This document shows positions 12,573 to 58,415 of a stretch of 64,000 bases of DNA, piece after piece. The notes under the pieces are model-generated. The model saw nothing but the letters and a program-made list of their open reading frames with translations, did not search any database and was not told the DNA's origin. How positions within the stretch are numbered: position 1 is the first letter of the stretch; the number at the start of each line of letters is the position of its first letter. The position numbers and the translations under genes are program-made. This DNA is from Dehalococcoidia bacterium (GTDB lineage: Bacteria; Chloroflexota; Dehalococcoidia; Plut-88900): the NCBI GenBank assembly GCA_965197675.1, contig OZ240221.1, positions 2,457,637 through 2,521,636 of the forward strand, read 5' to 3'.

Positions 12573-13384
12573 GGCCTGTTAACACTATTAGTTGAATTAT
12601 GATACAATTCTGGCATGGAAATAACCGAAGTCCAGTTTCAACGTATCGCGCCCCATCTCCCAGTGCAGCGGGGCAATGTCAGCCTTTCGAACCTGCGAGT
12701 GCTCAACGCAATCTTGTACGTCGCCGAGCATGGTTGCAAATGGCGGGGGTTGCCGGCCCGGTTTGGCAACTGGCATACCATCTACACCCGCATGAACCGC
12801 TGGTCCAAGAGCGGCGTACTGGACCGGATATTCGAACACCTCCAGAAGGAACAGATGGTGCGCATCAAGCTGGAGGCGGTTTCGATGGACAGCACTACCG
12901 TCAAGGTGCATCCCGACGGCACGGGTGCGTTAAAAAAAACGGACCCCAGTCCATCGGCAAGTCCCGCGGCGGCTGGACCACCAAGATTCATATGGTTGCC
13001 GCGGATGCTCGAACAGCTATAACCTTTTCCCTCTCTCCAGGACAGGCCCACGACGCGCCGGAAGGGCGCAAGCTGCTGCACCATCTGGGGCCTCAGCATG
13101 GGAACCCGTCTCTGCTGATGGACCGGGCATACGAGGGAAACGAGACCCGCCAGTTGGCGTTAGCGCTGGGGTTCACACCTGTCGTTCCGCCGCTGAAGAG
13201 CCGGATTGACCCTTGGGAATACGACCGGGAGATATACAAGAAGCGCAACGAAATCGAGCGGCTATTCCGTCGGCTGAAGGGATTTCGCCGCATCTTCTCT
13301 CGCTTTGACAAGCTCGACGTACTCTTCCTGGGATTCATCCTATTCGGGTTCATTATCGATGCACTACGTTAGTGTTAACAGGCC
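12573..13384 (+). mobile_element. IS5-family (IS427/IS1031-like) insertion sequence, 812 bp.
   Basis: 15-bp terminal inverted repeats GGCCTGTTAACACTA (12573..12587 and 13370..13384, the right end as reverse complement). Flanking TAG at both ends (12570..12572 and 13386..13388), consistent with a 3-bp target duplication. Two overlapping transposase frames. Confidence 0.8.
12615..13372 (+). CDS. IS5-family DDE transposase, made by a -1 programmed frameshift fusing orfA (12615..) to orfB (..13372).
   Basis: A8 slippery run at 12932..12939. The orfA frame reads ...GTGALKKTDP. The -1 frame continues KKNGPQSIGKSRGGWTTKIHMVAADA...YKKRNEIERLFRRLKGFRRIFSRFDKLD, the conserved IS5 C-terminus. Confidence 0.75.
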
Positions 13385-30059: not shown

Positions 30060-30300
30060 TCCTTTCCTCCCGGGGGAAAGTTACACCCTGCCCCCTACTC
30101 GATACGGAGATGAGCAGGGCCGGCTGGGGTATCAGCCCCGCTCATGTGGTTCCCTTCGGCAAACTCAGGATAAACTCTTGGCTCACCATGAGCGAGAGCT
30201 GAGGCGTCTCCGCTCACCCTGAGCTTGTCGAAGGAAATGAGCGGGGACTCCCACTCGGTTCCATCCACCCCCCTCTCCCGTCATTCCCGCCTCCGAGCGG
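30060..30300. repeat. Composite dispersed repeat: inverted-orientation copy of the family C/D modules plus a hairpin family A variant.
   Basis: 30164..30234 is the reverse complement of the 8230..8283 and 47129..47188 element. 30270..30296 is GTCATTCCCGCCTCCGAGCGGGAATCC. Confidence 0.55.
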
Positions 30301-47082: not shown

Positions 47083-47290
47083 CCTCCAACACCCCTCCCC
47101 TTCGACTACACTCAGGGTAAACTTTAAGCTCAGGGTGAGCGGATGTCTCTTTTGACCCGCTCATGGTGAGCCTAGAGTTTATCCTGAGTTCCCCGAAGGG
47201 AACCATTTGAGCGAGCGGGGGTACAACCAACCCCGGAGCGGACGAGTGAGCCCAAGGCCTTTGCCTTTCTGGGACAGGCTCCACGTGGGA
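47083..47290. repeat. Composite dispersed-repeat cluster (family C element 47129..47188, family D module, family B 47251..47281).
   Basis: Blocks homologous to 8230..8335, 30121..30234 (inverted), 25014..25044 and 26453..26483. Confidence 0.55.
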
Positions 47291-47466
47291 GAGGGCGAGA
47301 GTGACGGAGCGAGGGCATTTTGGGAAGCGCAGTTTCTTGACAATAAATAATTCCCTCTGATAGCATCTATCTCTAACTTAACAATGTGTACCTTTTGCCA
47401 CAGGCACACGTTAGCTTCCTGGAGGTCACCCCATAGCCTGGAATCGATGAACGCTCGTCATCGAGA

Positions 47467-48714
47467 ATGGCACGTGAGAGAGCTATGTCCAACGCCACCG
47501 CGTTAAGATGCAAAGAGTGCACCAGGGAATATCCCCTGGATCCCATGAACGTTTGCGAGTTCTGCTTCGGCCCCCTCGAAGTGACCTACGACTACGATGC
47601 CATCGCCCGCGTTGTAAACAGGGAGAGCATCGAGGCGGGACCCCTCAGTATGTGGCGCTACAAAGACCTGCTGCCTGTAAACGGGCAGGTGGTCGACCTT
47701 GGCACCGGCTTCACCCCTCTGCTCAAGGCCAACAACCTAGGCCGGGAGTTGGGACTTAAAAACCTGTACCTCAAGAATGATTGCGCCAATCCATCCCACT
47801 CTTTCAAGGACCGCGTGGTGGGCGTAGCCAGCACCAAGGCCAAAGAGTTCGAGTTTGACACCATCGCCTGCGCCTCCACAGGCAACCTGGCTGGCAGCGT
47901 GGCAGCCCATGCCGCCCGAGCGGGACTGAAAGCCTACGTGTTCATACCTGCAGACCTGGAGCTGGGCAAGGTGGTGTCTGCCGCAATTTACGGCCCTACT
48001 CTGGTCGCAGTAAAGGGCAGCTACGACGAAGTCAATCGCCTTTGCAGCGAGTTGGCGGACAAATATCAATGGGCGTTCGTGAACATTAACGTCAGGCCTT
48101 ACTACGCCGAGGGTAGTAAGACTCTGGGCTACGAGGTCGCCGAGCAGTTGGGCTGGAAAACGCCCGATTGGGCTATCGTCCCAGGAGCGTCCGGCTCCCT
48201 GTACACCAAGATCTGGAAGGGTATGCAGGAGTTGGCCAGCATAGGCGTCATCGATCCTCCCAGGACAAGAATGGCAATAGCCCAGGCAAGAGGTTGTTCG
48301 CCCATCGTCTCGGCCTTCGAAGAGCATCGCATGGAGATCAAGCCTGTGAAGCCAGACACTCTTGTCAAGTCCCTGGCAATAGGCAACCCCGCCGATGGCT
48401 ACTACGCTTTGAAGACTCTTAAAGAGACCAGAGGCCATGCCATGGCCTCAACAGACCCGGATGTAGTGGCGGGCATGGCCCTGCTTGCCAGCACAGAGGG
48501 CATCTTCGGGGAGACGGCAGCAGGAGTGGTGATAGCGGGTCTGAAGAACCTGGTGGAAAAGGGTGTAATCAAAGAGAACGATGTTACTGTAGCCTTCATC
48601 ACCGGCTCAGGTCTCAAGACCCAGGAACCAGTTCAGGAGCTGGTCGACCCGCTGGTCGTGGAGCCCGACCTCGCGTCCTTCGAAGAGGCACTGAGCGCTC
48701 GAAACAGTGGTTGA
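47467..48714 (+). CDS. thrC: Threonine synthase homologue (PLP fold type II) with an N-terminal Cys4 zinc-ribbon-like segment.
   Basis: SFKDR PLP-lysine motif. CKEC...CEFC N-terminus. About 415 aa. Confidence 0.75.
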   Translation: MARERAMSNATALRCKECTREYPLDPMNVCEFCFGPLEVTYDYDAIARVVNRESIEAGPLSMWRYKDLLPVNGQVVDLGTGFTPLLKANNLGRELGLKNLYLKNDCANPSHSFKDRVVGVASTKAKEFEFDTIACASTGNLAGSVAAHAARAGLKAYVFIPADLELGKVVSAAIYGPTLVAVKGSYDEVNRLCSELADKYQWAFVNINVRPYYAEGSKTLGYEVAEQLGWKTPDWAIVPGASGSLYTKIWKGMQELASIGVIDPPRTRMAIAQARGCSPIVSAFEEHRMEIKPVKPDTLVKSLAIGNPADGYYALKTLKETRGHAMASTDPDVVAGMALLASTEGIFGETAAGVVIAGLKNLVEKGVIKENDVTVAFITGSGLKTQEPVQELVDPLVVEPDLASFEEALSARNSG

Positions 48715-48765
48715 CTCCAGTGCCCGAATTCTCCGGTATTCAATAGCAACTGAGCGGAGCGGTAA

Positions 48766-49008
48766 ATGGTTAAAAAGCGATCCAAATTCACTTTCCCACC
48801 TGACCTAGTGACCCAGCCAATCATCTATCACCTGGGCAAGGAGTTCGATGTCGTGACCAATATCCGTAGGGCCGATGTAACCGAGAACCAAGGGTGGGTG
48901 GTCCTGGAGTTGGAGGGTAACGAGGAAGAGATCAATCGAGGGTTGGCCTGGGTCAGCGACCAAGGCGTGCGAGTAGATCCGGTGGTCGGCGATATTGTGG
49001 AGGGGTGA
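48766..49008 (+). CDS. Small NIL-domain protein (MetN C-terminal-like).
   Basis: QPIIYHLGKEFDVVTNIRRADV...GWVVLELEG matches the NIL pattern. 80 aa. Confidence 0.45.
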   Translation: MVKKRSKFTFPPDLVTQPIIYHLGKEFDVVTNIRRADVTENQGWVVLELEGNEEEINRGLAWVSDQGVRVDPVVGDIVEG

Positions 49009-49072
49009 TACCAGTCTTCTCGGACTGTCGTATAATTAGTGAAAAGAGGTTCGTAGTTTTCAGGAGGTTTCG

Positions 49073-49351
49073 TTGATGAGCGCTACTCTTAAGATCCCCA
49101 CCCCACTGCGTAAGGCAACCAACGGCGAAAGTACCGTTTCGGTGGAAGGGAGCGACCTGCTCCAGTGTATTGACTCGTTGGACTCTCAGTACCCTGGGAT
49201 CAAGGAGAGGTTGTGCTCCGACAACGGCGAGCTGCACAGGTTCGTCAATGTCTACATCAATGGCGAGGACGTCCGCTTCCAGAACGGCCTTGGGACCTCC
49301 GTGAAGGACGGCGACGAGATAAGCATAGTCCCCGCCGTCGCCGGCGGCTAA
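49073..49351 (+). CDS. MoaD/ThiS-family sulfur-carrier protein ending in Gly-Gly.
   Basis: 92-aa beta-grasp-like protein with C-terminus ...ISIVPAVAGG. Confidence 0.65.
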   Translation: MMSATLKIPTPLRKATNGESTVSVEGSDLLQCIDSLDSQYPGIKERLCSDNGELHRFVNVYINGEDVRFQNGLGTSVKDGDEISIVPAVAGG

Positions 49352-49397: not shown

Positions 49398-50309
49398 CTA
49401 GTGATGATAAGCACTCTCCTTATATAGTGCTGTCATTTCTTCCTTTTGTGGTTTCCTAAACACAAACAAATGCTCATGCATGATTAAGAAAAAGTTCTTC
49501 TCTCTCGACAGCCGAGTCCAAAGATTCTCCGTTTGTGTATGCCACTGATACTTAATCACGTCCTCTTTGAGGATGAATCCCGCTTCTAAGAACACTTCCA
49601 TTACCCTGAATGCCAGTGGCACATAGTGCCTATTTCTCCTGGTGTCACCTACCAGAATAGCGCAATAGTGGTCAGGTTTAAGGACTCGGAAGAACTCATC
49701 GGCGACAAGCCGCATTTGCGAAACGAACTTAGTAACGTCGCCAACCAGGGACAGGTCCTCTTTCAGTTCCGCCTTTGGATCTGAGTAAGAAATGATATTC
49801 GCATACGGAGGGTGAGTAGCGATTAGGTCAATGGTGGCATCTTTGATTAGATTCAGATTCCGCGTATCACCTTTATAGATTTCAACTCTTGACGTAGGTA
49901 ATGGCACCTTTAGGAGACCGAGTGAGAAGTTTAAGCGGTCCATCGTCAGCATCAGAGCATTCATATTGACATCAATACCGATAGCGTTGCGTCCCGTCAG
50001 CTTGCACTCCACTAGAGTGGTGCTACCACCACACATTGAATCGAGTACTAAATCACCTGGAGGGCTATAGCGTAGGATTAGGTTACGTGCTATCTGGGGT
50101 GCCCAGTTGCCTCGGTAACTAGAGCGGTGAGTGGCCCAGCTACCTCGTTGGGGAAATGACCACAGAGTAGTAGTCTCGGTCTTGAAATCTGTCGGTTGCA
50201 GATCCTTGGGACACTGCTGGCCTCGGAGACGGATCTTGGCTTTCCCAACTTCGACGGTTTTTTGTCGGGCCAGAAAACGCTGGTAATCCGCCTGAGACAG
50301 AAGCTGCAT
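49398..50309 (-). CDS. DNA methyltransferase of the N6_N4 (PF01555-like) family, with the usual C-terminal motifs X-I moved to the front and motif IV reading HPPY.
   Basis: WSFPQRG...APQIARNLILRYSPPGDLVLDSMCGGSTT (motifs X-I) precedes IDLIATHPPYANI (IV) and FFRVLKPDHYCAILVGD. Low GC compared with flanking genes. Confidence 0.7.
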   Translation of the reverse strand: MQLLSQADYQRFLARQKTVEVGKAKIRLRGQQCPKDLQPTDFKTETTTLWSFPQRGSWATHRSSYRGNWAPQIARNLILRYSPPGDLVLDSMCGGSTTLVECKLTGRNAIGIDVNMNALMLTMDRLNFSLGLLKVPLPTSRVEIYKGDTRNLNLIKDATIDLIATHPPYANIISYSDPKAELKEDLSLVGDVTKFVSQMRLVADEFFRVLKPDHYCAILVGDTRRNRHYVPLAFRVMEVFLEAGFILKEDVIKYQWHTQTENLWTRLSREKNFFLIMHEHLFVFRKPQKEEMTALYKESAYHH

Positions 50310-50310
50310 A

Positions 50311-50397
50311 GATCAGATCGGGGATCGATCCGATCCTACAGATCATTAGCAAAAGATCAAGATCATTTGGCTCCATTTTTTCTGTATGTAGCTGATC
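50311..50397. promoter_or_regulatory. GATC-dense spacer with 9 GATC sites in 87 bp, including the palindrome GGATCGATCC. Lies between the nuclease and methyltransferase genes, immediately 5' of the methyltransferase ATG.
   Basis: GATC at 50311, 50316, 50323, 50327, 50332, 50341, 50355, 50361 and 50394. About 0.3 would be expected by chance. Confidence 0.55.
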
Positions 50398-50427
50398 TGG
50401 GAAAGGAGACAATTCCTCGAAATTATC

Positions 50428-51354
50428 TCACCTGCCTTGATAGGCTTGCCCCTCATCGCTGAGCCTGTACAGCCCCAACCTCCCAGCTACTCCGCCCTTT
50501 CTAATGAAGAAGTCATCACCATCTTTCCCAACTGTGTGGGCATTTAATCGTCCTCTTATGCTATTGCATAATGTATCCCACTTGTACGGCAGGGCTAGCT
50601 CTTTGGCCCTGGCTTCAACCCAGGTCGAAATGTCTCTCAGGTGCACATATCCCTCGGCATCTCCCGCCAAGTTTTTCATAGCTTGAATTATTAAGCCCCT
50701 TTGAGTCGGGGCCGGACCCTCAAGATAATCTTCTCTTCTTTTGAGTTCCTTGAGTAGCCGCTGAGTTTTCTGGTCTCTTAGCGCTTTTCGCCCTTCATTC
50801 CTCACCCGTTTATAGATTCTTTCATAGTCCTCTAAGTACGCCTCATCCGGTCTGAAAATAGTCTCCTGTTTTCTAAAGCGATCGTAGACCGAAAAGATTT
50901 GCTCTGTCAGCGGATCCAATCTAGAAGCGTGAATGGCCAAATTCAACTCTGCGTTTAGCTCAAAACCACTTTTTGTCAAATTCGATGACCCCACCACAAA
51001 ACAGCACTGATCCTCAGGACGCTCAATAATATAGAGCTTAGGATGGAATAGTGGTACATCATCTTGAGACGGGTCAGAAAAGGCATAAAATTTCAAATTC
51101 GGGTGACCCGTTCTGGCCCGAATGAGCCACTCCATGGCTTTAGGCTCGGATATTCTAAAATCTAACCCAAAAACGATTTCAAAGCTGTCACCAAGCGCAA
51201 GGATATTATTTAATTGGTCCTCGATACTATTGAGACCAGACAACCTGATGAACGCCGTGGCAAAACGAGCAGACGATGCCCCATCAAGTTGCCGCACTAG
51301 GAAGTTAGTGAGCGTTTCCTCATGATTGTCGATGACAGTAATTGATGGCCTCAT
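50428..51354 (-). CDS. PLD-family (single HKD motif) nuclease with a C-terminal winged-helix-like domain. The ORF-track start at 51393 would be GTG; the first ATG is at 51354.
   Basis: HPKLYIIE...VVGSSNLT...NAELNLAI resembles Nuc/BfiI-type PLD nucleases. C-terminus ...FFIRKGGVAGRLGLYRLSDEG resembles Mrr-N/HARE-type winged helix. Confidence 0.6.
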   Translation of the reverse strand: MRPSITVIDNHEETLTNFLVRQLDGASSARFATAFIRLSGLNSIEDQLNNILALGDSFEIVFGLDFRISEPKAMEWLIRARTGHPNLKFYAFSDPSQDDVPLFHPKLYIIERPEDQCCFVVGSSNLTKSGFELNAELNLAIHASRLDPLTEQIFSVYDRFRKQETIFRPDEAYLEDYERIYKRVRNEGRKALRDQKTQRLLKELKRREDYLEGPAPTQRGLIIQAMKNLAGDAEGYVHLRDISTWVEARAKELALPYKWDTLCNSIRGRLNAHTVGKDGDDFFIRKGGVAGRLGLYRLSDEGQAYQGR

Positions 51355-51424
51355 GAAATTTCTAGTGTTCGCAAATAGGGAATAACTAATCACTGTCCAA
51401 TAGCCAGATTTGGACTAGAGTAAG

Positions 51425-53137
51425 CTATCCGTCATCCATCAACTCTTCCAGCACCTCTCGTACGAGCTCTAAGGGAACGTCGTTACGGATGACGGGCTTG
51501 CCGATCTCATCCAGCAGCACCCATCGGATGGTCTTGCCCCTGACCTTCTTGTCCAACTGCATCGCATCGATAAGGGCGTTCACATCTATCTTAGGCGAAG
51601 AAGTAGGCAGCCCGTACCTTTCCAGTAGTGATCTCTGCCTCTCAACCGACCTCTCAGGCAGACCAGCTACCCGATGGCTGATCGACGCGGCTCCCATCAT
51701 CCCCACTGACACGGCTTCGCCATGGAGGAACCGCCCATAGCCGGCAACCGCCTCGATGCTGTGTCCTATGGTGTGTCCGTAGTTCAAAATAGTCCTCAGC
51801 CCAGACTCCTTCTCATCCTGGCTCACCACCTGTCCCTTCAAAGCTGCGCTGCGCCGGACTACCTCGGTGGTGCTCTCAGGTTCCAATGCCATAATCGGCT
51901 CTGAGCCTCCTTCCAGTATATCCAACAACTCAGGGTCCATGATCATACCGTGCTTTATCACCTCGGCCCACCCGGACGTTAGCTCCCGAGGAGGCAGAGT
52001 AGATAAGACTTGCACGTCGGCTATAACCATCCGAGGTTGGTAGAACGCACCGATGAGATTCTTGCCCCTAGCGTGATTTATGGCTACCTTCCCCCCGATG
52101 GACGAATCCATCATCGCTACCAGGCTGGTAGGTATCTGGACTAACGGAAGTCCTCGAAGGTAAGTGGCCGCGGCATATCCGCCCAGGTCTCCCACCACTC
52201 CACCACCCAGAGCAACTACGGGGCTACCCCTCTCCACCCTGTGCTCCACCAGCAAATCGTATATAGCCGAAAGGGCCTCCGGAGACTTGCTTCTCTCTCC
52301 AGCTGGCACTTGCTTTTCCAAAACCTGGAATCCCGCGCTCTTCAACGACTCTGCAGCCCGAAGGCCATAGGCAGAATAGACCACCTCATCAGCTATTATC
52401 ACCGCGGTGCCTGATAAGCCCAAGTTCCTGGTCCGCTGGCCCAACTCGTCTAGCCCTCCCCAACCTACGAACACGGGATATTGGGCTGTGGGAGTAGTCA
52501 CCACGAACGCTGCTCCCATCTCCTGGCAGTAAGGGGCTTCCGACTCTTTTCTTACGAGTCCGGCCGGTGGAAACATATCTCCAGTGTCTTTATCGAGGCG
52601 GCGCCAAGCATACTCCACCCCCCTCACAACCTCCTCCACCACCTCCTCCATCTTTAGGTCATCGGTGTGGACGGTCCAGTCGGCCATAGCATAAAAGGGT
52701 TGGCGATACTCCTTGAGAGACTCGATCCTCTTTAGCGGGTCTGGACCCGCAAGCAGGGGGCGAACGGCTTCAGGGTTAGAGTCATCGAGACGGAGGCGTT
52801 TCAGGACGATGTTGGGTTTGGCCTCCAGGCATATCACCACACCGCTGGACATCATCAGCCTGCGGTTCTCTGGATCCAGTACCATTCCACCCCCCGTCGA
52901 GACCACCACCCCCTGTTGACGGCATGCCTCCACTAATACTTTACGCTCCCGCTCTCGAAAGCCCTCTTCCCTCTCCTGGCTGAATATCTGGGGTATGGTC
53001 ATATTTGCCCGTGCCTGGACTTCTTCGTCTGTATCAACGAACTCGCGATGAAGCCGACGAGCCAGGTTACGTCCAACCTCCGACTTGCCCGTTCCAGAAA
53101 AACCCACCAGGAAGATACTCTCGGACATGTCAATCAC
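51425..53137 (-). CDS. aroKB: Bifunctional shikimate kinase / 3-dehydroquinate synthase fusion.
   Basis: N-terminal P-loop FLVGFSGTGKS (AroK). C-terminal DHQS motifs (GGGVVGDLGGYAAATYLRG; DSSIGGKVAIN). Confidence 0.85.
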   Translation of the reverse strand: MIDMSESIFLVGFSGTGKSEVGRNLARRLHREFVDTDEEVQARANMTIPQIFSQEREEGFRERERKVLVEACRQQGVVVSTGGGMVLDPENRRLMMSSGVVICLEAKPNIVLKRLRLDDSNPEAVRPLLAGPDPLKRIESLKEYRQPFYAMADWTVHTDDLKMEEVVEEVVRGVEYAWRRLDKDTGDMFPPAGLVRKESEAPYCQEMGAAFVVTTPTAQYPVFVGWGGLDELGQRTRNLGLSGTAVIIADEVVYSAYGLRAAESLKSAGFQVLEKQVPAGERSKSPEALSAIYDLLVEHRVERGSPVVALGGGVVGDLGGYAAATYLRGLPLVQIPTSLVAMMDSSIGGKVAINHARGKNLIGAFYQPRMVIADVQVLSTLPPRELTSGWAEVIKHGMIMDPELLDILEGGSEPIMALEPESTTEVVRRSAALKGQVVSQDEKESGLRTILNYGHTIGHSIEAVAGYGRFLHGEAVSVGMMGAASISHRVAGLPERSVERQRSLLERYGLPTSSPKIDVNALIDAMQLDKKVRGKTIRWVLLDEIGKPVIRNDVPLELVREVLEELMDDG

Positions 53138-58357: not shown

Positions 58358-58415
58358 CCGGCTCCTTTTCCCTCAAGGGTTGAGGTGTCTCCGCTCACCC
58401 TAAGCCTGTCGAAGG
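58358..58415. repeat. Partial inverted copy of dispersed repeat family C (TGAGGTGTCTCCGCTCACCCTAAGC) plus GCTCCTTTTCCCTCAAGGG module.
   Basis: Reverse complement matches the 5' part of the 8230..8283 and 30190..30234 elements. Confidence 0.5.

What the first reader, a model, noticed from the sequence alone, without database searches (positions are those of the whole stretch)
47467..49351. ThrC homologue + NIL-domain protein + Gly-Gly-ended MoaD/ThiS sulfur carrier: candidate sulfur-carrier-dependent homocysteine/methionine route
A threonine-synthase-type PLP enzyme has an SFKDR lysine motif and an N-terminal Cys4 ribbon. It is followed by an 80-aa NIL-domain protein, a domain otherwise seen on MetN methionine importers and on NIL-ferredoxin proteins of anaerobic homocysteine synthesis. 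Next comes a 92-aa beta-grasp protein ending in ...AVAGG, the hallmark of thiocarboxylate-forming sulfur carriers.

ThrC homologues act on O-phosphohomoserine, and a thiocarboxylated carrier is a plausible sulfur donor. I recall published MetM/MetO-like systems (a ThrC homologue paired with a sulfur-carrier protein) from the literature, but I cannot cite them precisely. The ThrC gene may therefore not be a plain threonine synthase.
Basis: partly seen in the sequence, partly recalled or inferred. Interest (0 to 1): 0.5.

Follow-up and report, generated by a model that had tools for sequence, protein, structure and literature searches.

The report
MetM/MetO-type homocysteine operon with NIL partner
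A gene annotated everywhere as "threonine synthase" in this Chloroflexota genome is most likely the enzyme of a recently discovered methionine pathway that takes sulfur from a small carrier protein, and here it has a conserved third partner, probably methionine-sensing, that I did not find described.

Summary
Three co-oriented genes encode a ThrC-fold PLP enzyme with an invariant N-terminal Cys4 ribbon, an 80-aa NIL protein, and a 91-aa ThiS/MoaD carrier ending …AVAGG.

- **Carrier linkage:** the ribbon-ThrC and carrier are adjacent in 68 of 80 named genomes from at least six phyla.
- **Activation genes:** ThiF-type E1 and JAMM genes join the cluster in several phyla.
- **Methionine regulation:** SAM-I riboswitches sit directly upstream in 8 Chloroflexota loci, four with the full NIL trio, and in Micromonosporaceae.
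- **Separate threonine synthase:** three genomes carry a canonical thrC beside it, twice within ask/hom/thrB or HomK operons. That places it at the O-phosphohomoserine branch point.
- **Remodelled active site:** the aligned threonine-synthase phosphate-site residues differ (T88L, S155N, R160Y).

This matches the MetM/MetO pathway published for Streptomyces in 2024, so the core is a new member of a known kind.

What I did not find described is the NIL gene. It occurs in 24 of 35 Chloroflexota loci and four other lineages, is often translationally coupled, and is once fused to the carrier. It keeps the methionine-contacting Asn of the MetN C2 domain, so a methionine-sensing subunit is the best guess.

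The window holds no riboswitch, E1 or canonical thrC.

The parts
47337..47366 (+). Promoter-like site (TTGACA, 18 nt, TG-TAGCAT) for the three-gene operon.
   Evidence: It matches 10 of 12 consensus positions. On its own this is not above chance (1 found, 1.3 expected). However, both hexamers and their spacing are conserved in the 79%-identical relatives L001 and L008, while the surrounding sequence is not.
47367..47484 (+). 5' leader of about 110 nt with no recognisable riboswitch.
   Evidence: There is no Rfam match at gathering score or at E<=5. There is no hit with my SAM-I model R1. Folding is no better than shuffles, z = -0.49.
47485..48714 (+). MetM-like ribbon-ThrC: a PLP fold-type II enzyme and candidate O-phosphohomoserine-dependent homocysteine synthase. 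The ORF is open from 47467.
   Evidence: Family and closest relatives:
- Pfam PALP 3e-65. NCBIfam NF006050 scores 304 bits against a cut-off of 303, and TIGR00260 scores 266 bits.
- It is 51% identical over its full length to SAM-riboswitch-controlled Micromonosporaceae homologues.
- It is 59-66% identical to SAM-controlled Chloroflexota homologues and 34-38% identical to canonical TS.

Clade placement comes, and start-codon conservation.
47509..47565 (+). Cys4 zinc-ribbon motif (CxxC...CxxC; C15, C18, C30, C33 in ORF numbering).
   Evidence: The four cysteines are invariant in alignment A1. There is a Pfam zinc-ribbon-type hit at residues 14-38. All solved canonical TS structures lack this segment, and their alignments start at query residue 62 or later.
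47800..47814 (+). SFKDR motif containing the PLP-binding lysine (K114).
   Evidence: K114 aligns to K61 of T. thermophilus TS 1UIM. The motif is conserved in both the ribbon and canonical clades. The two residues that follow differ between clades: VV in the ribbon clade, GM in canonical TS.
48082..48105 (+). Remodelled leaving-group (phosphate) site, N206-Y213 (VNINVRPYY in place of canonical VNSxNPxR). L141 at 47887-47889 belongs with it.
   Evidence: Clade-discriminating columns are at least 90% conserved and different in each clade. They map onto 1UIM as T88 to L141, S155 to N208, N157 to R210 and R160 to Y213. That T88, N154, S155 and R160 bind the substrate phosphate in TS is my own recollection of Omi 2003 and Murakawa 2011, which I could not verify here.
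48766..49008 (+). Stand-alone NIL-domain protein (80 aa, no cysteine): a conserved third component and candidate methionine-sensing partner.
   Evidence: - Pfam NIL 1.3e-15. A GGAG lies 8 nt upstream of the start.
- Orthologues sit immediately after the ribbon-ThrC in 24 of 35 Chloroflexota loci. In four other lineages they sit after, or are fused to, the carrier.
- The ThrC-to-NIL junction overlaps or is at most 21 nt in 14 of 24 loci.
- A profile of the family hits only MetN C2 domains in the PDB (3dhx, 3.7e-7).
48859..48873 (+). NIL motif N32-I-R-R-A36, aligned with MetN N295-A299.
   Evidence: N32 is at least 90% conserved and A36 is invariant in 22 orthologues. The alignment to E. coli MetN comes. 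In MetN, the N295A mutation abolishes L-Met binding, and A299 lies on the pairing strand of the C2 dimer (PMC6233128).
49076..49351 (+). MetO-like ThiS/MoaD-family sulfur carrier (91 aa) ending ...PAVAGG. The GG codons are at 49343-49348.
   Evidence: - Pfam ThiS 1.6e-17. NCBIfam SAMP1 scores 65.7 against a cut-off of 60, and moaD_arch scores 52.
- A GGAGG ribosome-binding site precedes the start.
- It is 51% identical without gaps to the Microcystis carrier. The M. aeruginosa counterpart of that carrier is reported to be 47% identical to S. albulus MetO (PMC12172450).
- The carrier is adjacent to the ribbon-ThrC in 68 of 80 loci.

Best explanation
The three genes form one operon for sulfur-carrier-dependent homocysteine synthesis of the MetM/MetO type.

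Proposed mechanism (all steps inferred):
1. The 91-aa carrier already ends in Gly-Gly, so it needs no trimming. A ThiF/MoeZ-type E1 encoded elsewhere in the genome adenylates its C-terminus and converts it to a thiocarboxylate.
2. The ribbon-ThrC enzyme binds O-phospho-L-homoserine on PLP and eliminates phosphate, as threonine synthase does.
3. It does not add water at C-beta. It lets the carrier thiocarboxylate attack C-gamma, which gives homocysteine directly or after hydrolysis of an acyl intermediate. Homocysteine is then methylated to methionine.

The remodelled phosphate pocket (T88L, S155N, R160Y in T. thermophilus TS numbering) would suppress the phosphate-assisted water addition that defines threonine synthase. 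The invariant Cys4 ribbon is a plausible docking surface for the carrier.

The NIL protein is a stoichiometric partner of the enzyme. It most likely senses methionine and imposes feedback control, by analogy with the MetN C2 domain and the NIL domain of L-aspartate-semialdehyde sulfurtransferase.

Shown here: gene content, conservation of the cluster, SAM-riboswitch control of orthologues, coexistence with canonical thrC, and clade-specific residues. Inferred: substrate, product, sulfur donor and the NIL function.
For: - **Published precedent.** MetM is a ThrC homologue, 'often misannotated' as threonine synthase. It uses MetO-thiocarboxylate and O-phosphohomoserine, and S. albulus metM has a SAM riboswitch.
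- **Conserved linkage.** A ThiS-like carrier lies directly downstream in 26 of 35 Chloroflexota loci, 35 of 37 cyanobacterial loci and 7 of 8 loci from other phyla. The unit keeps together in unrelated neighbourhoods.
- **Sulfur-activation genes in the same cluster elsewhere:**
  - ThiF follows the carrier in three Nitrospinota loci.
  - Nitrospirales has ThiF-ThrC-ThiS-NIL-ThiF-JAMM.
  - Syntrophaceae has ThrC-(ThiS~NIL)-rhodanese-ThiF-JAMM.
  - The close relative L013 has ThiS-ThiF-ThiS-PALP-JAMM within 5 kb.
- **Methionine regulation.** Rfam SAM-I (RF00162, 69-91 bits against a gathering score of 44) lies immediately upstream of the ribbon-ThrC in L015, L020, L023 and L039 (all full NIL trios). 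It also lies upstream in L035, L036, L044 and L054, and in Micromonosporaceae L005-L007.
- **Not the housekeeping TS.** Canonical thrC (TIGR00260, 306-333 bits) coexists with it in the same loci:
  - L029: ask-hom-thrC-thrB-ribbonThrC-ThiS.
  - L049: ribbonThrC-ThiS-NIL-thrC-HomK (TIGR02535, 578 bits)-ask.
  - L075.
  - PMC12172450 also reports two ThrC copies in cyanobacteria.
- **Phylogeny.** The ribbon clade separates from canonical TS in 100 of 100 bootstraps. The window protein nests among NIL+ThiS Chloroflexota, interleaved with SAM-controlled members.
- **Active-site divergence.** It has the clade residue at 33 of 34 discriminating positions.
- **NIL.** Supported by conservation, tight coupling, one in-frame ThiS-NIL fusion, retention of the N295/A299 equivalents, and literature support for methionine binding by NIL domains.
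Against: - No enzymology was possible, and I made no direct comparison with S. albulus MetM/MetO.
- The window operon itself has no SAM riboswitch.
- The 64-kb window holds no E1, JAMM, thrB/homK, hom or canonical thrC. For this genome, the pathway context and the existence of a separate TS are therefore unverified.
- The protein passes NCBI's curated 'threonine synthase' cut-offs.
- The 57%-identical Microcystis orthologue was reported to show weak threonine synthase and threonine deaminase activity in vitro, and no methionine increase in vivo (PMC12172450).
- The clade that includes the actinobacterial SAM-controlled proteins has only 70% NJ bootstrap support.
- For NIL there is no binding data. 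It is absent from cyanobacteria, Nitrospinota and Micromonosporaceae, so it is not essential to the chemistry.
Confidence: 0.75

Rival explanations
1. The first gene is an ordinary threonine synthase, as annotated. The NIL and ThiS/MoaD genes are unrelated neighbours, with the carrier serving molybdopterin or thiamine synthesis or ubiquitin-like protein modification.
For: - It passes the NCBIfam threonine synthase equivalog cut-offs (NF006050, 304 against 303; TIGR00260, 266 against 167).
- The carrier passes the SAMP1 and MoaD models.
- The closest solved structures are all threonine synthases.
- No other TS is present in the window.
Against: - Adjacency of carrier and ribbon-ThrC is conserved across at least six phyla, in 68 of 80 loci.
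- SAM riboswitches, not threonine-related control, sit upstream in 11 loci.
- A canonical thrC sits in the same operon or locus in three genomes.
- The TS phosphate-site residues are replaced.
- I saw no MoaE, MoaA or ThiG/ThiH genes next to the carrier in the window or in the annotated loci.
- SAM-controlled members score the same on NF006050 (284-299 bits), so that model evidently describes this clade rather than proven threonine synthases.
Confidence: 0.06
2. The enzyme is a moonlighting threonine synthase/threonine deaminase, as proposed for its Microcystis orthologue. Its main role would be threonine or 2-ketobutyrate metabolism rather than sulfur transfer.
For: PMC12172450 reports in-vitro TS and deaminase activity, threonine-induced expression, and no rise in methionine for the M. 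aeruginosa protein. The window protein is 57% identical to the Microcystis novacekii orthologue L082.
Against: - Those assays used Na2S, not a thiocarboxylated carrier.
- The same paper notes an adjacent, co-induced MetO-like gene.
- This reading does not explain the conserved carrier, E1 and JAMM linkage or the SAM riboswitches.
- Side activities of this kind are also reported for canonical TS.
Confidence: 0.1
3. The enzyme uses a different substrate or makes a different sulfur compound with the carrier. One possibility is cysteine from O-phosphoserine, as in CysM/CysO. Another is a cysteate-synthase-like reaction.
For: - ThrC homologues have evolved O-phosphoserine chemistry before (cysteate synthase, cited).
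- CysK-like genes lie directly upstream in L051 and L084, and CysO/CysM-like blocks lie next to the trio in L013.
Against: - SAM riboswitches point to methionine, not cysteine.
- Operon partners in L029 and L049 are hom, thrB/HomK and ask, which are the O-phosphohomoserine supply.
- The cysteate synthase model scores only 67 bits against a cut-off of 325.
- Separate CysK/M enzymes in those clusters already cover the cysteine step.
Confidence: 0.05
4. The core MetM/MetO reading is right, but NIL is not a methionine sensor. It would instead be a structural adaptor or chaperone that presents the carrier, or protects its thiocarboxylate, at the enzyme active site.
For: - An in-frame ThiS-NIL fusion occurs in Syntrophaceae.
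- NIL follows the carrier rather than the enzyme in Nitrospirota, Thermodesulfovibrio and Methylomirabilota.
- NIL coexists with SAM riboswitches in four loci, so a second layer of methionine sensing is not obviously needed.
Against: - NIL has no cysteine.
- It retains the Asn and Ala that make the methionine site and dimer strand in MetN.
- NIL in L-ASST is described as methionine-binding.
- Many lineages run the enzyme-carrier pair without NIL.
Confidence: 0.25

Closest known systems
MetM/MetO thiocarboxylate pathway of Streptomyces albulus (Hasebe et al. 2024, AEM 90:e01247-24; summarised in bioRxiv 10.1101/2024.10.14.618325 and PMC12172450).
   Same: It pairs a ThrC-homologous PLP enzyme with a small Gly-Gly sulfur carrier. 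Orthologues of the window enzyme are under SAM riboswitches, as metM is. The context points to O-phosphohomoserine as substrate. The enzyme is routinely annotated as threonine synthase.
   Different: - A conserved NIL-domain gene sits between enzyme and carrier.
- This operon has no riboswitch.
- The carrier ends exactly at GG, so no Mec-type maturation is needed.
- E1 and protease genes are not nearby.
- The host is Chloroflexota (Dehalococcoidia-like), not Actinobacteria.
- Direct sequence identity to S. albulus MetM/MetO could not be measured.
CysM/CysO/MoeZ/Mec cysteine pathway (Mycobacterium tuberculosis type; own knowledge).
   Same: A thiocarboxylated ThiS-like carrier donates sulfur to a fold-type II PLP enzyme that acts on an O-phospho-amino acid. 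It uses a ThiF/MoeZ E1 and a JAMM protease. Such blocks lie right beside the trio in L013 and L051.
   Different: The enzyme there belongs to the CysK/M family, not the ThrC family. The window protein scores only 28 bits on the cysM/cysKM models. The product is cysteine, not homocysteine, and there is no NIL component.
HcyS/HcyF/HcyD/MetY protein-thiocarboxylate homocysteine pathway of Wolinella succinogenes (cited in PMC8191291 and PMC5764234).
   Same: Homocysteine sulfur comes from a carrier-protein thiocarboxylate.
   Different: The enzyme is a fold-type I O-acetylhomoserine sulfhydrylase and the substrate is O-acetylhomoserine. It has no ThrC homologue and no NIL.
Canonical threonine synthase (TIGR00260; PDB 1UIM, 2ZSJ, 6CGQ, 2D1F).
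   Same: It shares the fold, the PLP-lysine motif SFKDR, the ASTGN loop and probably the substrate O-phosphohomoserine. Identity is 34-38%.
   Different: The window protein has an extra 60-aa Cys4 ribbon. It has 34 clade-specific substitutions, including T88L, S155N, N157R, R160Y and GNAGN to xASGx. It is linked to a sulfur carrier and to SAM riboswitches.
NIL (C2) domain of the methionine importer ATPase MetN, and the NIL-ferredoxin subunit of L-aspartate-semialdehyde sulfurtransferase (MA1822/DUF39 system).
   Same: The domain family is the same (PF09383), and a profile of the NIL family hits only MetN C2 domains in the PDB. Equivalents of N295 and A299 are conserved. Both known contexts concern methionine or homocysteine homeostasis, and the domain is described as methionine-binding.
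   Different: Here it is a free-standing 80-aa protein. It is not fused to an ABC ATPase or a ferredoxin, and it partners a ThrC-type enzyme and a ThiS-type carrier.
'Moonlighting ThrC' of Microcystis aeruginosa (PMC12172450).
   Same: It belongs to the same ribbon-ThrC clade: the window protein is 57% identical to the Microcystis novacekii orthologue L082. It has the same adjacent MetO-like carrier, which is 51% identical.
   Different: It is interpreted there as a threonine synthase/deaminase. Cyanobacterial loci lack NIL (0 of 37).

Membership tests
MetM (MetO-thiocarboxylate-dependent homocysteine synthase) | ThrC-fold PLP enzyme with the catalytic lysine motif. | tested here: met
   PALP 3e-65. 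SFKDR lies at residues 112-116 and aligns with K61 of 1UIM.
MetM (MetO-thiocarboxylate-dependent homocysteine synthase) | Sequence orthology to the characterised S. albulus MetM. | tested here: inconclusive
   The reference sequence was not obtainable, so only proxies are available:
- 51% full-length identity to SAM-riboswitch-controlled Micromonosporaceae proteins.
- 57% identity to the Microcystis novacekii orthologue L082. The M. aeruginosa orthologue is reported as 51.6% identical to MetM.
- 70% bootstrap support for the joint clade.
MetM (MetO-thiocarboxylate-dependent homocysteine synthase) | Genetic linkage to a MetO-type Gly-Gly carrier. | tested here: met
   The carrier lies 362 nt downstream in the same operon. 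The linkage is conserved in 68 of 80 genomes.
MetM (MetO-thiocarboxylate-dependent homocysteine synthase) | Methionine/SAM-responsive regulation (SAM riboswitch upstream). | tested here: not met
   There is none in the window. It is met in orthologues: 8 Chloroflexota loci and 3 Micromonosporaceae loci.
MetM (MetO-thiocarboxylate-dependent homocysteine synthase) | A distinct canonical threonine synthase coexists in the genome. | not testable with these tools
   Only 64 kb of this genome is available and it holds none. The feature is met in L029, L049 and L075. The contig-fingerprint attempt on close relatives was uninformative.
MetM (MetO-thiocarboxylate-dependent homocysteine synthase) | Converts O-phosphohomoserine plus MetO-COSH to homocysteine. 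| not testable with these tools
   This requires enzymology. The only support is indirect, from operons with thrB/HomK, hom and ask.
MetO / ThiS-MoaD sulfur-carrier proteins | Beta-grasp ThiS-family domain with a C-terminal Gly-Gly. | tested here: met
   PF02597 1.6e-17. The protein ends ...AVAGG-stop.
MetO / ThiS-MoaD sulfur-carrier proteins | Cognate ThiF/MoeZ-type E1, and a JAMM protease where the carrier has a C-terminal extension. | tested here: not met
   Neither is in the window. Both are present in-cluster in L013, L042, L051, L078, L084 and L086. No protease is needed here because the carrier ends at GG.
Canonical threonine synthase (TIGR00260 / NF006050) | Scores above the curated HMM cut-offs. 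| tested here: met
   TIGR00260 scores 265.7 against 167.1, and NF006050 scores 304.3 against 303. SAM-controlled relatives score 284-299 on NF006050, so that model tracks the ribbon clade rather than proven function.
Canonical threonine synthase (TIGR00260 / NF006050) | Conserved phosphate-binding residues (1UIM T88, S155, R160) and the GNAGN loop. | tested here: not met
   The window has L141, N208 and Y213, and ASG at 241-243. All of these are clade-wide substitutions. The residue roles come from my own knowledge.
NIL domain (PF09383; MetN C2 type) | Domain match with the ligand-contact Asn and interface Ala retained. | tested here: met
   PF09383 1.3e-15. N32 and A36 align to MetN N295 and A299.
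NIL domain (PF09383; MetN C2 type) | Binds L-methionine and regulates the partner. | not testable with these tools
   This is analogy only. The single-sequence AF2 model has low confidence (pLDDT 64).
Cysteate synthase (TIGR03844) | Scores above the family cut-off. | tested here: not met
   66.8 bits against a cut-off of 324.9.
DUF39 / NIL-ferredoxin L-ASST homocysteine pathway | NIL fused to ferredoxin, and a DUF39 (COG1900) subunit nearby. | tested here: not met
   NIL is stand-alone. No such domains occur among the annotated window ORFs.

The most novel reading that the evidence does not exclude
The free-standing NIL protein is a dedicated methionine-sensing subunit. As a dimer it would clamp the dimeric MetM-like enzyme, or gate access of the carrier, and switch off homocysteine synthesis when methionine is plentiful.

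This would be a third, independent recruitment of the NIL module to methionine homeostasis, after the MetN importer and L-aspartate-semialdehyde sulfurtransferase. It would also be the first allosteric regulator known for a protein-thiocarboxylate pathway.

The ThiS-NIL fusion would then be a pro-protein that a JAMM protease splits into carrier and regulator.
Probability: 0.35. Interest if true: 0.65.

Novelty: new variant of a known kind. Interest (0 to 1): 0.5.

Why it matters
- **Annotation.** Hundreds of Chloroflexota, cyanobacterial, Nitrospirota and Nitrospinota genes labelled "threonine synthase" appear to be homocysteine synthases. NCBI's curated model NF006050 captures this clade. That matters for metabolic reconstructions and auxotrophy predictions for abundant uncultured groups such as Dehalococcoidia and SAR202.
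- **Physiology.** The route draws methionine sulfur from a protein thiocarboxylate and branches at O-phosphohomoserine. Threonine and methionine synthesis would therefore compete for one intermediate, as in plants.
- **Mechanism.** The conserved NIL partner gives a concrete, testable handle on how a carrier-dependent pathway is regulated, and on what NIL domains do outside transporters. The paired paralogues in single operons (L029, L049), together with the short list of discriminating residues, form a natural experiment on how a PLP enzyme switches from beta-hydroxylation to gamma-thiolation.

Tried and rejected
1. **NIL as a substitute for the SAM riboswitch (mutually exclusive).** Rejected, because four loci (L015, L020, L023, L039) have both.
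2. **Rosetta-stone fusions among long ribbon-ThrC representatives.** These turned out to be PadR and LeuA-allosteric fusions in distant relatives (36-40% identity), not NIL or ThiS. The one apparent ThrC-NIL fusion (P0164) has an Arg/Gly-rich junction typical of a frameshift, so I discounted it.
3. **Reaching Streptomyces MetM through a homology search seeded with the actinobacterial representative P0126.** The top 120 hits were all Micromonosporaceae. They still proved useful because of their riboswitches.
4. **Finding a canonical thrC in close relatives by matching contig lengths.** I searched with the L029 canonical TS and found no matches. This was a low-power test and the null is uninformative.
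5. **A novel riboswitch in the window leader.** There are no Rfam hits and folding is not unusual. The best weak Rfam hit (mir-6536, 47113-47186) is a dispersed hairpin repeat.
6. **NIL as a persulfide relay.** Rejected, because the protein has no cysteine.
7. **Structure prediction of NIL from a single sequence.** It gave pLDDT 64, too weak for a fold search, so I did not pursue it.
8. **The primary papers** (Hasebe 2024 PMC11497804; Murakawa 2011 PMC3024773) are not held.

Full report
**What is in the window**

Three co-oriented ORFs occupy 47467-49351.
- The first (415 aa as listed) is a fold-type II PLP enzyme (Pfam PALP, 3e-65). Its extra N-terminal segment gives a zinc-ribbon-type Pfam hit.
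- The second (80 aa) is a stand-alone NIL domain (1.3e-15).
- The third is a ThiS/MoaD-family beta-grasp protein that ends ...PAVAGG.

The four ribbon cysteines (C15, C18, C30, C33) are invariant across homologues down to 40% identity.

Comparison with two 79%-identical relatives shows that the conserved start of the enzyme is the second ATG at 47485. It also shows that a TTGACA/TAGCAT promoter-like pair at 47337-47366 is conserved while its surroundings are not. The carrier gene most likely starts at 49076, behind a GGAGG.

Upstream lie hsp20 and its strong terminator. Downstream, on the opposite strand, lie a DNA methylase and a PLD-family gene.

**Organism and annotation status**

The closest homologues (66-95% identity) come from Dehalococcoidia and other Chloroflexota metagenome bins. 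Wherever they carry a name, it is "threonine synthase".

NCBIfam would give the same name. The protein just clears the equivalog NF006050 (304.3 bits against a cut-off of 303) and clears TIGR00260. All near matches in the PDB are canonical threonine synthases of about 350 aa without the ribbon.

**The published precedent**

Hasebe et al. 2024 described MetM in Streptomyces albulus. MetM is a ThrC homologue that makes homocysteine from O-phosphohomoserine using the thiocarboxylate of the carrier MetO, with MoeZ and Mec as helpers.
- GapMind 2026 notes that MetM is often misannotated as threonine synthase.
- PMC12172450 adds that S. albulus metM has an upstream SAM riboswitch.

The primary paper is not in the held library. 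I therefore tested the hallmarks rather than direct identity.

**Conservation of the gene cluster**

The trio recurs intact in a syntenic relative and also in an entirely different neighbourhood, so it travels as a unit.

A scan of one genome per species returned 80 named loci. I searched their ORFs with profiles built from the window proteins.

| Group | Loci | Carrier directly downstream | NIL present |
|---|---|---|---|
| Chloroflexota | 35 | 26 | 24 |
| Cyanobacteria | 37 | 35 | 0 |
| Other phyla | 8 | 7 | 4 |

- In Chloroflexota the gene order is enzyme-NIL-carrier.
- NIL is also present in Nitrospirales, Thermodesulfovibrio and Methylomirabilota (order enzyme-carrier-NIL) and in a Syntrophaceae bin.
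- In the Syntrophaceae bin, carrier and NIL are one in-frame ORF (...IPAIAGG-SFLKRRVMLTFPP...).
- NIL is absent from the three Nitrospinota loci and from Micromonosporaceae.

**Sulfur-activation partners**

The window contains no E1 or JAMM gene. Elsewhere they sit inside the cluster:
- ThiF directly follows the carrier in three Nitrospinota genomes.
- Nitrospirales has ThiF-enzyme-carrier-NIL-ThiF-JAMM.
- Syntrophaceae has enzyme-(carrier~NIL)-rhodanese-ThiF-JAMM.
- L013 is the nearest tree neighbour of the window's clade. It has enzyme-NIL-carrier, followed by Rrf2, a CysK/M-like enzyme, ThiS, ThiF, ThiS, a second CysK/M-like enzyme and JAMM.

Many carriers carry one to three residues after GG, or a fused domain, and would need trimming. 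The window's carrier does not.

**Regulation points to methionine**

Rfam finds a SAM-I riboswitch (69-73 bits, gathering score 44) ending 10 nt before the start codon of the Micromonosporaceae homologues. These are 51% identical to the window protein over their full length, including the ribbon.

The same riboswitch precedes the ribbon-ThrC in eight Chloroflexota loci. Four of these have the complete enzyme-NIL-carrier trio and are 59-66% identical to the window enzyme.

The window itself and its closest relatives have no riboswitch, and the leader is not unusually structured.

**It is not the housekeeping threonine synthase**

Three loci carry a second, canonical thrC of about 365 aa with no ribbon, scoring 306-333 bits on TIGR00260:
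- A Chloroflexi bin has aspartate kinase, homoserine dehydrogenase, thrC, thrB, ribbon-ThrC and carrier in a row.
- A Thermodesulfovibrio bin has ribbon-ThrC, carrier, NIL, thrC, a TIGR02535 homoserine phosphotransferase (HomK type, 578 bits) and aspartate kinase.
- A Nostoc genome carries the third example.

These operons put both paralogues at the O-phosphohomoserine node. PMC12172450 independently reports two ThrC types in cyanobacteria.

An attempt to show the same for the window's closest relatives, by matching contig lengths, gave no information.

**Phylogeny and active site**

In a neighbour-joining tree the ribbon proteins separate from canonical TS in 100 of 100 bootstraps. The window protein nests among Chloroflexota members that have NIL and carrier neighbours, interleaved with riboswitch-controlled ones. 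The clade that also includes the actinobacterial proteins has 70% support.

Thirty-four alignment columns are at least 90% conserved but different in the two clades, and the window protein has the ribbon-clade residue at 33 of them.

Mapping onto T. thermophilus TS (numbering verified) gives:

| 1UIM residue or motif | Window residue or motif |
|---|---|
| T88 | L141 |
| S155 | N208 |
| N157 | R210 |
| R160 | Y213 |
| GNAGN | xASGx |
| SFKDRGM | SFKDRVV |

From my own knowledge of the TS literature, which I could not verify here, T88, N154, S155 and R160 hold the substrate phosphate. The retained phosphate then directs water addition. Their replacement fits an enzyme that releases phosphate and accepts a different nucleophile at C-gamma.

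**The NIL protein**

- It has no cysteine, so it is not a persulfide relay.
- In Chloroflexota its start overlaps, or lies within 21 nt of, the enzyme's stop in 14 of 24 cases. That suggests translational coupling and a stoichiometric partnership.
- A profile of 22 orthologues matches only the C2 regulatory domain of MetN among solved structures.
- The family's near-invariant Asn (N32) and invariant Ala (A36) align with MetN N295 and A299. N295A abolishes methionine binding, and A299 lies on the strand that re-registers on binding (PMC6233128).
- The NIL domain of the homocysteine-forming L-ASST is likewise described as methionine-binding and regulatory (PMC12068725).

I therefore favour a methionine-sensing subunit. 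A carrier-presenting adaptor remains possible because of the fusion and the alternative gene order. My idea that NIL replaces the riboswitch was refuted by the four loci that have both.

**Verdict**

The core of the finding is a new member of the MetM/MetO system, in a phylum where it is annotated as threonine synthase. I put confidence in that reading at about 0.75. It rests on five independent kinds of comparative evidence and has no biochemical support.

The conserved NIL gene makes it a variant of the known kind. I found no paper in the searchable library that links NIL to this pathway, but I could not read the primary MetM paper.

The main caveats:
- This operon has no riboswitch.
- Partner genes are absent from the window.
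- In-vitro TS and deaminase activity has been reported for the Microcystis orthologue.

Noticed in passing
window 49398-51393 (- strand): An N6/N4 DNA methylase (PF01555) and a PLD-family nuclease-like gene lie directly after the operon. The syntenic relative L001 has luciferase-like and gamma-glutamyltranspeptidase genes at that position. This looks like a small inserted restriction-modification or defence islet.
   Followed up: partly
window 47113-47186; also 30207-30223 (-) and 58388-58404 (-): This is a dispersed intergenic hairpin repeat with core CTCAGGGTGAGCGG. It has three copies in the window, and 0 of 100 shuffles reach three. The copy upstream of the operon lies in a ~200-nt insertion absent from relatives L001 and L008, and it produced a spurious Rfam mir-6536 match.
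   Followed up: partly
L042 9288-9803, 9834-10784, 11353-11754: A Syntrophaceae bin has an in-frame ThiS-NIL fusion (GG followed directly by the NIL domain). A rhodanese-ThiF E1 and a Prok-JAB protease follow it. The carrier would have to be cut out of the fusion, much as ubiquitin is cut from its fusion proteins.
   Followed up: partly
L013 3601-10300: A Dehalococcoidia bin has a sulfur-amino-acid supercluster. It reads ribbon-ThrC, NIL, ThiS, Rrf2 regulator, CysK/M-like PALP, ThiS, ThiF, ThiS, second PALP, JAMM. This places a CysO/CysM-like cysteine module next to the MetM/MetO-like module.
   Followed up: partly
L026 75-2738; L020 9388-10350: There are further carrier fusions. One is an 887-aa protein with ThiS and ThiF domains after a ~520-aa unassigned N-terminal region. 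The other is a ThiS domain fused to a carboxymuconolactone-decarboxylase (CMD/AhpD-like) domain.
   Followed up: no
proteins P0178, P0193, P0226, P0192 (PadR); P0202, P0242, P0263 (LeuA_dimer): More distant ribbon-ThrC relatives (36-40% identity) carry C-terminal PadR-like winged-helix domains or LeuA-type allosteric domains. This suggests other regulated or specialised branches of this enzyme family.
   Followed up: no
L029 7116-7542: A T-box leader (104 bits) lies just downstream of the carrier gene. It precedes a 149-aa ORF of unknown family and a family-5 solute-binding protein. I did not read the specifier codon.
   Followed up: no
L051 6198-7127; L084 7043-7987: A cysK-type cysteine synthase gene lies immediately upstream of the ribbon-ThrC in Nitrospirales and Nitrospina. 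In L051 it scores 447 bits on TIGR01139.
   Followed up: partly
L010, L014, L016, L018, L019, L024, L025, L027, L031 (about 2-4 kb downstream of the cluster): A TauE/SafE-family anion permease (annotated as sulfite exporter) recurs near the cluster in nine Dehalococcoidia loci, in mixed orientation. It could be plain synteny or a sulfur-related link.
   Followed up: no
window 12599-13372: A DDE transposase ORF is inserted between topA and xerC.
   Followed up: no
window 51425-53137 (- strand): A single 570-aa ORF appears to fuse shikimate kinase to 3-dehydroquinate synthase (AroK-AroB). It lies in an aroKB-aroC-aroE-ruvX-alaS block, and the fusion is also seen in relative L001.
   Followed up: no
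L046 148-1377 (Aquificaceae bin): A ribbon-ThrC 57% identical to the window protein occurs in Aquificaceae. PMC5764234 lists Aquifex as lacking every homocysteine pathway known at the time. No carrier gene was found in the 8 kb available downstream.
   Followed up: no
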